From Escherichia coli (GTDB lineage Bacteria; Pseudomonadota; Gammaproteobacteria; Enterobacterales; Enterobacteriaceae), in assembly GCF_002854065.1 (NCBI RefSeq), contig NZ_CP024153.1: a DNA stretch of 64,000 nt; one strand, written 5' to 3'. This document shows, piece after piece, positions 46,001 through 49,000 of this stretch. A program made the position numbers. The stretch's first letter is position 1; each line of letters starts with the position of its first letter.

Positions 46001-49000
46001 ATCGCACACCATGAAGGGGCAATCGCAATGGCTGAGACCGAGCTCAAATACGGAAAAGATCCCGAAATGAGAAAGCTTGCGCAGGACATCATTAAAGCTC
46101 AAAAAGGTGAAATTGAGCAGATGAATAAATGGCTTGACAGTCATAAATAATGAACACTGGAGTGTTGTCTTGCGCACCCTCTTAGGGTACCCCCGGACAC
46201 GAAAATATATAGCACTTAACTAATTAAAAACCCGAATAATTTCGGGTTTTTAATGTAACTTTCTTTTCTGAACGGAAATAATAGTCATACAATTTAATTT
46301 TCTTGTAATTACTCCTACTTTTAATCAGGTACTGGACGATGGATAACGACTCCCGCCTGAGAGGGAAAATCCGTCTGGTTACCTGGCGCTATACTTAACC
46401 GATTGATCGACATGCCATGCTGGTAAAATATTAAAATCCTCCCCCATAAATCTGAACCACATGACAGGATTGATAGTCAGGCAGTATTTCACATTCATTG
46501 CTAAAAAAATAAAAATAAGCATGCATCTTCTCGAAGATTAATTACCTTCCATCTTGTAAAAAAGAATCAAATCCTCTAATAATATCTCGATTCCCGCTTT
46601 TTTTAATACATCTTTCCGCTCGGCATATATTTTCCTCAACATATCTTCAAACCCCTTGCCAAGATGAATTTGTTTATGGCAGTTGCAACATAGTGATATG
46701 ATATTCTCTTCCACATCCAGTGAATTCTCAAAATAGTCTTGCTTTGACATCGGGACAATGTGATGAGGTTCTGTGTAATTTAGAGGAGAGTTTCGCCTTC
46801 TGAACGTTGGATGGTCGCAATTAATTTCACATTTATAATCAGCTTTGTTAAGCGCATTTTTTGAAACAGATTTACTTCTTGGGTATGAGAGTCCATTTTT
46901 GACTTCTATTGCAGCTTTCTTAGGTTTCGCTTTTTCGCTATACTCAAATGTCTGAGTAACGTCAAAGTGATTACTTTCTTCTAGAGCAGTGATCAAATCA
47001 TTATCTGAGTAAAAATCAATGCTTGAGCTTTCGTTCGTACTAAAAAAATCTAGTTCTTTTATTGCCTGAACAAGTTCTTCACGGATAGTCCATAAATTTC
47101 GCTTTGGGTTTCCTTTAATTTCTCTACTTTTCATGACTGTAATGAATTTTGTCCCGGAAGCAATCTTTCCGACTCCTTTAACCTCGAATCGGCCAAGCTG
47201 CTTCTGAACTCTTCCACCCAACCCATTGATTACACCATTAGCACTCATACTGTGCAGGTCGTACTTCTTGCCGATATCGAAACATGTACAGGAATGGTCT
47301 GGCTCAATGAACCATTTTTTTAACGCTGCAATACTTTTGTCATCAAAAACTTTTTTATCCCTTAATAAAATCTTCCATTCTTCAACGCTAATATCTATAT
47401 CACAGACGTATTCACCATCAATTACTTCACATATTTTTTCAATCATGTCCATAACTCTCTTGTAACACAGGCTTTGTAATAATGTAAAATCCGTTACACG
47501 GCGTTGTATGTAATGTCATTGTCTCTTGGACTCCTACAGTCCAAAACAACTTTGTGTTTTGTTGTCCAAAAACTTTTTGTTGCAGTGAGTTCTCACTGAG
47601 ATAAATCTCGCCTTGAGCGTATCACATCAGCAGACTTCCTCTCAACCTTATGGACTTAACCCGGTCATTCTTCACGACAAAGAAAGTACGGCATTTTACA
47701 TGACGAAGAGACGGTCTCAGTTTCACATGACCGGATAACGTTTTTAATGTACTTCATTATTACGGCACGGGTGTTCAAAGAGTATTTTTAAATATTAATC
47801 ATTTTGTTTAACGGGTGGATACCTACAAATTTTAACATTTACTAATCAAGATAGCAGTTATACGTACTGTCCCGGCAAAAATCCTGAGGTTTACAGATTC
47901 CCTCACCGTAACAGACCCGGTCATTCCCCCTGGTCCTCCGGAGAGTCTAGTACGAGTGATAAACGTGAATTCCTGTACCTGAAGTTCAGCCGCTGGCAGA
48001 TAAGTCGTGAACTATAATTACATTCAGTCAGATCCAAACACCTTTTCATCTGCATATATACTTTGTACATACCAGGAGATTACATGCAGGCACCCGGTAT
48101 ACCGGAGAATGAAGAACAGAGGCTGAAGTCCCTGTATATTACCGGCCTTCTTGATACCCGTGACGATGAGCGTTTTGAACGCCTGACGCGGCTGGCCCGT
48201 AAAGCCTTTCAGGTCCCGGTGGCCCTGATAAGCCTGCTGGATCGCGAGCGCCAGTGGCTCCTCGCCTGCCAGGGCGTCGGCGTGCGCGAAACCCCGCGTA
48301 ACATCTCGTTCTGCGGGCATGCCATTCTGCAGGAGGGGCCCTTCATTGTTCACGACGCAGCTGCTGATGAGCGGTTCCGTGACAATCCCCTGGTCACCGG
48401 TGAGCCCCACATCCGGTTCTACGCCGGCCAGCCGGTGAGCCTGCCCGACGGCACGGTGGCCGGCACGCTGTGCCTGATCCACACCGTTCCCCGCGCCTTC
48501 ACGGATGATGACATTGCGTCCCTCCGGGATCTGGCCTGTATCGTGGAAGACGAATTCGAGGCCATCAGCATGGCCATGACGGACAGCCTGACGGGCATTC
48601 CCAACCGGCGCGGGTTTTACCGCGCCGGCGAAAAACTCTTCCGCGCGATGAACCGGCAGGATGCGTCGTTCAGCCTCATCTATTTCGATCTGGACAGGTT
48701 CAAACCGGTGAACGATCTCTGGGGGCACGCAGAGGGAGACGAGGTGCTGAAGGTTTTTGCCGGCTTTTTACATCAGCACCTCGAACCGGGCGAAATAGCA
48801 GGCCGCCTCGGCGGGGATGAGTTTGCCGCCCTGATCCGGCGAAACGGGAACACGAGTTCTTTTCTGCACGCGCTGAGTGCCAGTTTGGATCATTACAATG
48901 ACACCTCGGGCAAGCCCTACAACATCAATTATTCCTTTGGCGAACTGATCAATAACGCAGACCAGTACGCGACGCTGGCGGAAATGATCGGCAAATGTGA

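What the first reader, a model, noticed from the sequence alone, without database searches (positions are those of the whole stretch)
46253..48062. Orphan low-GC HNH nuclease gene with operator-like palindrome, embedded between sil genes and a GGDEF gene
A 304-aa protein with a C-terminal HNH motif (HH...CCNCH) and an uncharacterised ~220-aa N-terminal domain, in an AT-rich island and with no adjacent methyltransferase. Upstream is ~600 bp with no ORF of 60 aa or more and a dyad TTGGACT-CCTAC-AGTCCAA. The profile fits a horizontally acquired single-gene defence or exclusion nuclease (modification-dependent restriction or abortive infection), or a homing-type nuclease.
Basis: partly seen in the sequence, partly recalled or inferred. 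Interest (0 to 1): 0.6.

Follow-up and report, generated by a model that had tools for sequence, protein, structure and literature searches.

The report
Plasmid-borne winged-helix HNH restriction nuclease
A solitary AT-rich gene next to the silver/copper-resistance genes of a very common enterobacterial plasmid most likely encodes a restriction nuclease that cuts foreign DNA carrying unfamiliar chemical marks: an ordinary kind of anti-phage gene, but its DNA-reading domain and its target are uncharacterised.

Summary
The gene is real: window 46538-47452, minus strand, 304 aa, probably starting at Met3. GC is 36% against 51% for the window. It is a two-module chimera. Residues 1-135 form a confidently modelled winged-helix (wH) domain with no Pfam family and no close solved relative. 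The same domain heads McrB GTPases in McrBC operons. Residues about 150-304 are a McrA-type HNH cassette, 52% identical to the cassette of SRA-HNH proteins. All catalytic and zinc residues are conserved. No DNA methyltransferase lies nearby in any context examined.

Five diverged alleles show dN/dS of about 0.08. Some allele is present in 1,378 of 72,556 plasmids and in 126 of 5,426 complete E. coli genomes, always at the silE-DUF305 edge of the sil island. The far-side neighbours vary and include PifA, TIR and Ppl-like defence genes.

The best reading is a single-chain Type IV (modification-dependent) restriction endonuclease. Its target is unknown but is unlikely to be Dam or Dcm methylation.

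The dyad exists, but it is barely above chance and is not conserved. A conserved promoter-like element further upstream is more credible. The homing and island-mobility readings are not supported.

This is a new member of a known kind, of moderate interest.

The parts
46223..46254 (.). Perfect 14-bp inverted repeat with a 4-nt loop (ATTAAAAACCCGAA-TAAT-TTCGGGTTTTTAAT). It looks like a bidirectional intrinsic terminator between the DUF305/CopM gene and the HNH gene. It also marks the point where the conserved sil module ends.
   Evidence: I1. The sil DNA is 92-97% identical between island variants and that homology stops at 46254. The hairpin is conserved in the Enterobacter-type island.
46255..46537 (-). 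AT-rich 3' flank of the HNH gene (GC 37.5%). It is not alignable between alleles. It contains a 47-aa ORF (46379-46522) that is not conserved.
46538..47452 (-). wH-HNH gene, 304 aa from ATG 47452. Homologues and RefSeq (WP_001372261.1, 302 aa) start at Met3, position 47446.
47048..47452 (-). Residues 1-135: an N-terminal beta-hairpin plus a winged-helix domain. This is the presumed DNA or modification reader. There is no Pfam family for it.
46955..47047 (-). Residues 136-166: variable, low-confidence linker.
   Evidence: pLDDT is below 50 at 139-153 and 160-166. This is the most variable part of alignment A1. dN/dS is 0.2-0.5.
46541..46954 (-). Residues 167-304: McrA/TagI-type HNH cassette. 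The Pfam HNH core is residues 211-263, nt 46664-46822. The likely zinc ligands are C208, H214, C255 and C258; the catalytic residues are H231, N250 and H259/H263. Two C-terminal helices follow.
   Evidence: The cassette is 52% identical (E 8e-49) to that of an SRA-HNH protein.
47616..47645 (-). Promoter-like element: -35 TTGAGA (47645-47640), an 18-nt spacer with TG at 47624-47623, and -10 TACGCT (47621-47616). If it is used, the 5' UTR is about 160 nt.
   Evidence: It is the only upstream block conserved in all four enterobacterial alleles, with extended -10 variants TGGTATAAT, TGGTATGCT and TGATATGAT. The simple promoter scan did not call it.
47526..47605 (.). Cluster of three perfect 7-nt dyads, including the reported TTGGACT-N5-AGTCCAA at 47526-47544, plus three TTGGAC hexamers. 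It lies inside the presumed 5' UTR.
   Evidence: It is not conserved in the other alleles. The RNA fold z-score is -0.9 on the sense strand and -2.1 on the antisense strand.
47453..48062 (.). Divergent intergenic region between the HNH gene (minus strand) and the GAF-GGDEF gene (plus strand). No Rfam family and no credible small ORF were found.

Best explanation
The gene encodes a single-chain Type IV (modification-dependent) restriction endonuclease made of two swappable modules.

The N-terminal winged-helix domain (residues 1-135) binds double-stranded DNA. It is inferred to recognise a base or backbone modification, or a modified sequence context, that the host's own DNA lacks. A flexible linker joins it to a McrA-type beta-beta-alpha-metal HNH cassette (residues about 150-304), which cuts near the bound site. 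Because only 'foreign-marked' DNA is cut, no partner methyltransferase or immunity gene is needed. The gene can therefore travel alone as cargo at the variable edge of the sil/pco (CHASRI) island on plasmids. There it would restrict incoming phage or plasmid DNA.

Shown here: the two-module architecture, an intact catalytic and zinc motif, strong purifying selection, the absence of a methyltransferase, the sharing of each module with known Type IV scaffolds, and defence-gene neighbours in other alleles.

Inferred: DNA binding by the wH domain, dependence on modification, the identity of the target, and in-vivo restriction. The target is unlikely to be Dam G6mATC or Dcm C5mCWGG, because the gene is stably kept in hosts that carry those marks.
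For: 1. The HNH cassette is of the McrA type. PADLOC mREase_IV matches residues 189-278 (E 5.5e-7). The best PDB sequence hit is EcoKMcrA 6GHC (E 3e-6). The top Foldseek hits are ScoMcrA 5ZMM and EcoKMcrA 6GHC. Residues 150-299 are 52% identical (E 8e-49) to the cassette of an SRA-HNH protein. Reader domains are therefore swapped on one cutter.
2. The N-terminal domain is a reader-type module. It is confidently modelled as a winged helix. A phmmer search of 1.84 billion representative proteins found 228 proteins that carry it. Of 50 long ones, 38 carry the McrB-type AAA_5 domain, 5-8 carry HNH and 2 carry EVE. NCBIfam scores five of them as McrB at E 1e-32 to 1e-40. Two that were checked are followed by McrC.
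3. Selection: five alleles (99, 83, 81, 80 and 74% aa identity) are all intact. dN/dS is about 0.08, and lowest in the wH domain. H230, H231, N250, C255, C258, H259, H263, C208 and H214 are invariant in 30 homologues.
4. No DNA methyltransferase is adjacent in the enterobacterial, Aeromonas, Clostridium or metagenomic contexts.
5. Defence neighbourhood: in the Enterobacter-type island the gene abuts a Ppl-like ATPase, a PDC-S35 TIR protein and PifA (E 2e-290). In the window, a PDC-S67 candidate lies 2.5 kb away.
6. Host compatibility: some allele is in 1,378 plasmids and 126 of 5,426 complete E. coli genomes, including a K-12 C600 transconjugant.
7. Precedent: stand-alone wH-nuclease and wH-NTPase fusions have been shown or proposed to be Type IV enzymes (PMC11037411).
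Against: - No activity, DNA binding or phenotype was measured.
- The wH domain has no detectable sequence relation to the DpnI wH 6mA sensor, or to the Mrr_N or HARE-HTH Pfam families. Modification reading therefore rests on domain-context inference alone.
- The AT-rich gene could be H-NS-silenced in enterobacteria. That would weaken the argument that it must spare Dam/Dcm DNA.
- All proteobacterial alleles sit in copper/silver islands. A pure defence role does not predict this.
- The wH domain is the most conserved part of the protein, so there is no sign of arms-race diversification.
Confidence: 0.68

Rival explanations
1. A phage-triggered abortive-infection or toxin nuclease. The wH domain senses a phage DNA structure, sequence or protein rather than a modification, and the HNH then degrades DNA indiscriminately, killing the infected cell.
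For: The gene is solitary and has defence neighbours in other alleles. No methyltransferase or immunity gene is nearby. The wH fold by itself does not prove modification reading.
Against: Both modules are shared specifically with Type IV scaffolds: McrB/McrC operons, SRA-HNH proteins and McrA. No sensor or regulatory partner is conserved, because both flanks differ between alleles. A McrA-type HNH joined to a DNA-binding reader is the classic Type IV layout.
Confidence: 0.12
2. A mobility or homing nuclease of the copper/silver island. It would nick or cut DNA to promote spread, integration or retention of CHASRI, as suggested in the literature from the adjacency of HNH and IS4 genes to these islands.
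For: Every proteobacterial allele lies at the edge of a copper/silver resistance cluster. PMC12757443, citing Hao et al. 2015, proposes a mobility role. A site-specific integrase lies 3 kb away. Homology between alleles is limited to the CDS.
Against: Only about half of the sil-bearing plasmids carry the gene (1,340 against 1,689-2,817 records). Clostridial and other homologues of 58-65% identity sit alone among unrelated genes, without sil, transposase or integrase. There is no full-length phage homologue and no intron or intein setting. The cassette groups with McrA, ScoMcrA and SRA-HNH proteins, not with homing HNH families. CDS-only homology is what saturated synonymous divergence (dS 0.7-2) with purifying selection would produce.
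Confidence: 0.07
3. A non-defence DNA enzyme or regulator. It could be a sequence-specific nicking or repair nuclease, or a wH repressor with a vestigial HNH. In the regulator case the upstream dyad would be its own operator.
For: The best structural matches of the wH domain are MarR/ArsR-type repressors. A dyad cluster and TTGGAC repeats lie in the 5' UTR.
Against: The HNH catalytic and zinc residues are invariant and under purifying selection. The dyad is not conserved in the other alleles, although the wH domain is about 95% conserved. The wH domain's partners are McrB GTPases and nucleases, not effector-binding domains.
Confidence: 0.08

Closest known systems
EcoKMcrA (E. coli K-12 McrA, PDB 6GHC)
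   Same: It is a single-chain, methylase-less Type IV enzyme with an N-terminal reader and a C-terminal zinc-containing HNH. It is the best sequence match in the PDB (residues 189-278, E 3e-6) and in PADLOC.
   Different: Only the HNH core aligns. McrA's NEco 5mC/5hmC reader is replaced here by an unrelated winged-helix domain. The second zinc ligand is His214 rather than the second Cys of CxxC. The target is unknown.
SRA-HNH enzymes (TagI, PDB 6GHS; the SRA-HNH part of ScoMcrA, 5ZMM)
   Same: The extended HNH cassette is the same: 52% identity over 150 residues to an SRA-HNH protein. ScoMcrA is the top Foldseek hit.
   Different: It is not a base-flipping SRA/PUA domain.
wH-fusion Type IV endonucleases (DpnI wH domain; HhiV4I, PUA-wH-HNH; SruGXI, wH-HNH; wH-NTPase fusions), PMC11037411
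   Same: The order is wH then HNH. The gene stands alone without a methyltransferase. wH domains of this kind are also fused to McrB-like NTPases. That paper also argues that such proteins must read modified DNA or they would be toxic.
McrBC systems whose McrB carries the same N-terminal domain (for example P0132 and P0143 with a downstream McrC)
   Same: The reader domain is homologous (30-47% identity, E 1e-6 to 1e-21), so the DNA feature recognised is presumably similar.
   Different: In those systems the effector is a GTP-driven McrB hexamer plus the McrC PD-(D/E)xK nuclease. Here it is a directly fused HNH. None of these McrB variants appears to be characterised either.

Membership tests
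   Pfam HNH matches 211-263. PADLOC mREase_IV E 5.5e-7. 6GHC E 3e-6. 5ZMM and 6GHC are the top Foldseek hits. Catalytic and zinc residues are invariant.
   A discrete wH domain is present. It is shared with McrB homologues in McrBC operons. Binding to modified DNA was not and cannot be measured here.
   The neighbours differ between alleles and never include a linked methyltransferase. The type III R-M genes in L013/L014 lie 5 kb or more away, beyond IS elements.
   This needs in-vitro cleavage and in-vivo restriction assays.
EcoKMcrA orthologues | NEco N-terminal 5mC/5hmC-binding domain and full-length similarity | tested here: not met
   Only residues 189-278 align to McrA. The N-terminal domain has a winged-helix fold.
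DpnI-type wH 6mA (Dam) sensors and their wH-HNH fusions (PMC11037411) | wH domain followed by HNH in one chain, with no methyltransferase | tested here: met
DpnI-type wH 6mA (Dam) sensors and their wH-HNH fusions (PMC11037411) | wH domain homologous to the DpnI wH and carrying the 6mA/GATC recognition motif | tested here: not met
DpnI-type wH 6mA (Dam) sensors and their wH-HNH fusions (PMC11037411) | Toxicity in Dam+ hosts | tested here: not met
   This is indirect. The gene is intact and under purifying selection in Dam+ Enterobacteriaceae. It is present in 1,378 plasmids and 126 complete E. coli genomes, including a C600 transconjugant.
Homing HNH endonucleases | Located in an intron, an intein or a phage genome, with presence/absence polymorphism at a cognate site | tested here: not met
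   It is a free-standing plasmid gene. Six phage records match only the HNH core at about 30% identity. The PHROG hits cover only the C-terminal part, starting at residues 160-238.
Mrr_N / HARE-HTH winged-helix readers | Sequence match of the N-terminal domain to PF14338 or PF05066 | tested here: not met
   None of the 37 N-domain sequences matches either family, even at E of 0.1. The single HARE-HTH hit among the 50 long proteins therefore probably lies outside the shared wH domain; its position in that protein was not checked.
IscB/Cas9-type RNA-guided HNH nucleases | RuvC, bridge-helix and PLMP domains with an associated guide RNA | tested here: not met
   The NCBIfam IscB score is 15.8 bits against a cutoff of 175, over the HNH core only. 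No Rfam RNA was found nearby.

The most novel reading that the evidence does not exclude
The 135-aa winged-helix module may be a new, unnamed family of modified-DNA readers. It is absent from Pfam and has no solved relative. Its specificity would be something other than Dam, Dcm or McrA-type marks, for example a hypermodified phage base or a foreign methylation pattern. It is used interchangeably by McrBC systems and by this HNH enzyme. Because the HNH version rides on about 2% of sequenced enterobacterial plasmids beside the sil/pco genes, it could be a widespread and unrecognised factor in which phages and plasmids can enter clinical Klebsiella and E. coli.
Probability: 0.3. Interest if true: 0.55.

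Novelty: new member of a known kind. Interest (0 to 1): 0.36.

Why it matters
If the protein is active, a Type IV restriction enzyme of unknown specificity is co-carried with silver/copper resistance, and often antibiotic resistance, on more than 1,300 sequenced plasmids of Klebsiella, E. coli, Enterobacter and Salmonella. It could affect phage-therapy host range and plasmid compatibility. Its reader domain would add a new specificity module to the McrBC/McrA toolkit, and possibly a new reagent for mapping a DNA modification. It also offers a better-founded alternative to the published guess that the HNH gene next to CHASRI serves island mobility.

Tried and rejected
- Rfam search of 46100-48200 at E of 1 or better found only a sub-threshold rimP-leader hit on the terminator hairpin. 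There is no RNA family in the upstream spacer.
- RNA folding of the 5' UTR region gave no significant structure on the sense strand (z -0.9) and a marginal one on the antisense strand (z -2.1).
- The simple sigma-70 and terminator scan found no more sites than shuffles. It missed the element that alignment of the alleles later showed to be conserved.
- The dyad as an operator: rejected as a conserved feature.
- The 47-aa ORF just downstream (46379-46522) as an immunity gene: rejected, because the whole 3' flank is unalignable between alleles.
- N-domain against Pfam, against PDB sequences by profile, and the whole protein against NCBIfam: no family found.
- The supplementary files of PMC11037411 were searched for this protein or its hosts. 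They hold only mass-spectrometry tables.
- Literature searches for WP_001372261 and for sil, Tn7 and HNH found nothing specific.
- Test of whether the Aeromonas neighbour gene is a DUF305 homologue, which would imply a conserved DUF305-HNH pair: not supported (E 0.02).
- IscB-like reading: rejected.
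Full report
**What is in the sequence**

A 915-nt ORF lies on the minus strand at 46538-47452 and encodes 304 aa. Homologues and the RefSeq protein WP_001372261.1 start two codons later, at 47446. GC is 36.1% for the CDS (GC3 34%) and 37.7% for 46255-48062. The window as a whole is 50.7%, the sil genes are 50.1% and the downstream GGDEF gene is 58.5%. The left neighbour is a DUF305/CopM metallochaperone gene that follows silE. The right neighbour, transcribed divergently, is a sensor-domain diguanylate cyclase (GGDEF) gene. No ORF of 60 aa or more lies wholly in the 610-bp spacer. 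The reported dyad TTGGACT-N5-AGTCCAA is at 47526-47544.

**Origin of the window**

The 1.95-kb stretch is 99-100% identical in about 950 PLSDB plasmids of Klebsiella, E. coli, Enterobacter and Salmonella. It is always annotated 'HNH endonuclease' and lies between 'DUF305' and 'diguanylate cyclase'. With a more sensitive search, 1,378 of 72,556 plasmids carry some allele. So do 126 of 5,426 complete E. coli genomes; 125 of the 127 matching places are on plasmids, and one host is a K-12 C600 transconjugant. The wider context is the sil (silPABFCRSE) copper/silver island on IncF, IncI and other plasmids.

**The protein is a two-module chimera**

Pfam sees only an HNH core at residues 211-263. The PADLOC 'Type IV methyl-directed restriction enzyme' model matches residues 189-278. 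That model has 277 positions, which I recall is the length of McrA. The only significant PDB sequence hit is EcoKMcrA 6GHC, E 3e-6. Foldseek on the full-length AF2 model (pLDDT 82) ranks ScoMcrA 5ZMM and EcoKMcrA 6GHC first.

A homologue search found full-length relatives at 58-65% identity in Clostridium and Neobacillus. Some are named '5-methylcytosine-specific restriction protein A' by their sources. It also found many proteins that share only the C-terminal half. One of these carries an SRA domain at residues 140-264 and aligns to residues 150-299 here at 52% identity, E 8e-49. The 'HNH part' is therefore a cassette of about 150 aa. Elsewhere the same cassette is attached to the SRA reader of TagI-like Type IV enzymes.

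**The N-terminal domain**

A phmmer search of this domain against 1.84 billion representative proteins returned 228 proteins. Of 50 long ones, 38 carry a McrB-type AAA_5 domain, 5-8 carry HNH, 2 carry EVE and 1 carries NOV_C. NCBIfam scores five of them as McrB at E 1e-32 to 1e-40. Two that were looked up are followed by a McrC gene. The window protein aligns to the N-terminus of one such McrB, with about 43% identity over residues 12-135 (full alignment 32%, E 2e-29). In other words, this domain sits where EcoKMcrB has its 5mC-binding domain. That is the strongest available argument that it is a target-recognition (reader) module of Type IV systems.

**Is the gene functional?**

C208, H214, H230, H231, N250, C255, C258, H259 and H263 are invariant across 30 homologues. 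Five alleles were recovered. Four are enterobacterial (99, 83, 81 and 80% aa identity) and one is from Aeromonas (74%). All are intact. Nei-Gojobori dN/dS is about 0.08 overall: 0.03-0.07 in the wH domain, 0.06-0.16 in the HNH cassette and 0.2-0.5 in the linker. dS is 0.7-2. This is a protein under long-term purifying selection in both modules, not a decaying remnant.

**Context and history**

In all four enterobacterial alleles the gene sits in the same place and orientation next to DUF305-silE-silSR. Pairwise blastn shows that the sil module is 92-97% identical between island variants. That homology ends at window position 46254, the end of a perfect 14-bp hairpin at 46223-46254, which looks like a bidirectional terminator. 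Beyond that point only the HNH coding sequence is alignable, at 79-84%. Both of its flanks are too diverged.

The gene on the far side varies:
- GGDEF in the window.
- A Ppl-like ATPase, then a PDC-S35 TIR protein and PifA (E 2e-290), in the Enterobacter-type island.
- An Rpn-type transposase, IS66 and type III R-M genes in one E. coli variant.
- A CbtA/CbeA toxin-antitoxin cluster in another.

In the window itself, a PDC-S67 candidate defence gene (49989-50660, E 8e-28) and a site-specific integrase follow the GGDEF gene. The Aeromonas allele lies between cueP and a cus-like RND operon, flanked by IS elements. Clostridial and other homologues are solitary among unrelated genes. No context shows a linked DNA methyltransferase.

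About half of the sil-bearing plasmids carry the gene: 1,340 records against 1,689-2,817. No phage carries a full-length homologue.

**Upstream region**

A single perfect 7-nt dyad with a loop of 10 nt or less appears in 33% of dinucleotide shuffles of the spacer. Three such dyads cluster at 47526-47605 (observed 3, expected 0.53, P = 0.04), and TTGGAC occurs three times (P = 0.007). None of this is conserved upstream of the other alleles. The region does not fold better than shuffles on the mRNA strand (z -0.9). No Rfam family matches.

What is conserved in all four enterobacterial alleles is a promoter-like element: -35 TTGAGA at 47645-47640, a TG at 47624-47623 and -10 TACGCT at 47621-47616. 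In the other alleles the -10 region reads TGGTATAAT, TGGTATGCT or TGATATGAT. If this element is used, the 5' UTR is about 160 nt and contains the dyads. The 'operator' reading is therefore unsupported. A weak extended -10 promoter is the better-founded feature.

**Mechanism proposed**

The protein is most likely a single-chain Type IV restriction endonuclease. In this reading the wH domain docks on duplex DNA that carries a feature absent from host DNA, and the tethered McrA-type HNH cuts nearby. No methyltransferase is needed.

The architecture, the conservation, the sharing of both modules with Type IV systems and the contexts are shown here. DNA binding, dependence on modification and the target are inferred.

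The target is unlikely to be Dam or Dcm methylation. The gene is maintained under purifying selection in Dam+ Dcm+ enterobacteria. [quoted passage not shown] One caveat is that H-NS silencing of this AT-rich gene could mask toxicity.

**Rivals**

- A phage-triggered abortive-infection nuclease (confidence 0.12) is not excluded. It has no specific support.
- A mobility or homing role for the island was suggested in the literature (PMC12757443, citing Hao et al. 2015). It fits the persistent linkage to copper islands. It does not fit the gene's absence from about half of the sil plasmids, the solitary clostridial homologues, the McrA/SRA-HNH affinity of the cassette or the lack of phage, intron or intein settings (confidence 0.07).
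- A regulator or repair role (confidence 0.08) is contradicted by the invariant catalytic site and the non-conserved dyad.

**Comparison with what is known, and novelty**

The kind is known: reader-HNH Type IV enzymes, including wH-HNH fusions (PMC11037411; McrA, TagI, ScoMcrA). Annotation pipelines already call this gene 'HNH endonuclease' or 'McrA-like'.

The protein is not a McrA orthologue, because its N-terminal domain is different. By the tests possible here, it is also not a member of the DpnI-type Dam-sensing wH group.

Three things are new:
- The recognition that its reader is an unnamed winged-helix family shared with McrB.
- The observation that it is a conserved but deeply diverged resident at the variable edge of the sil island.
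- The inference that its specificity must differ from the characterised wH enzymes.

I rate it a new member of a known kind. The interest is moderate and comes mainly from its prevalence on clinical plasmids and from the untested reader domain.

Noticed in passing
window 49200-49640: A non-coding block of about 390 bp between the GGDEF gene and the PDC-S67-like gene is about 73% identical to a block in a different island variant (L016:4140-4580). It contains strongly conserved sub-blocks such as CTGATAATAAGCAGCCATATA and GGCCGCTGCGCGCCGG. There is no Rfam match. It may be a recombination site for the nearby integrase, or a regulatory region.
   Followed up: partly
window 49989-50660 (+) and 50680-51468 (+): The 223-aa hypothetical protein matches the PADLOC candidate defence family PDC-S67 (E 8e-28). 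It is immediately followed by a 262-aa site-specific integrase. The integrase is 85% identical at the DNA level to one in the K. oxytoca-type island (L016).
   Followed up: partly
L003:961-7446 (Enterobacter-type sil island): Where the window has the GGDEF gene, this variant carries a defence cluster: PifA (E 2e-290), a PDC-S35 TIR-domain protein, a YuaX-family protein and an 893-aa Ppl-like ABC/SMC ATPase. The silE side of the island therefore looks like a defence-cargo hotspot.
   Followed up: partly
window 46223-46254: A perfect 14-bp hairpin (AAAAACCCGAA...TTCGGGTTTTT) is where the 92-97% identity of the sil module ends in every island comparison. It is probably a bidirectional terminator that also marks a recombination boundary.
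   Followed up: yes
L009 (Aeromonas chromosome CP077378.1) 7130-15294: The 74%-identical allele lies between cueP and a cus-like RND efflux operon inside an IS-flanked segment. Every proteobacterial allele seen is therefore linked to copper/silver resistance genes, even though the alleles are far more diverged (dS 0.7-2) than the adjacent sil DNA. This is unexplained.
   Followed up: partly
L019:2790-7915 (metagenomic gammaproteobacterial contig): A 61%-identical homologue also lies directly downstream of EAL and GGDEF genes, in an island with AlpA and YfjJ-type genes. This is a second GGDEF adjacency and is probably coincidental.
   Followed up: no
window 47690-47740: A direct repeat TTTYACATGAC occurs twice, 27 nt apart, inside a block of about 50 nt. 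The block is partly conserved upstream of the Enterobacter allele and lies upstream of the proposed promoter. Its function is unknown.
   Followed up: no
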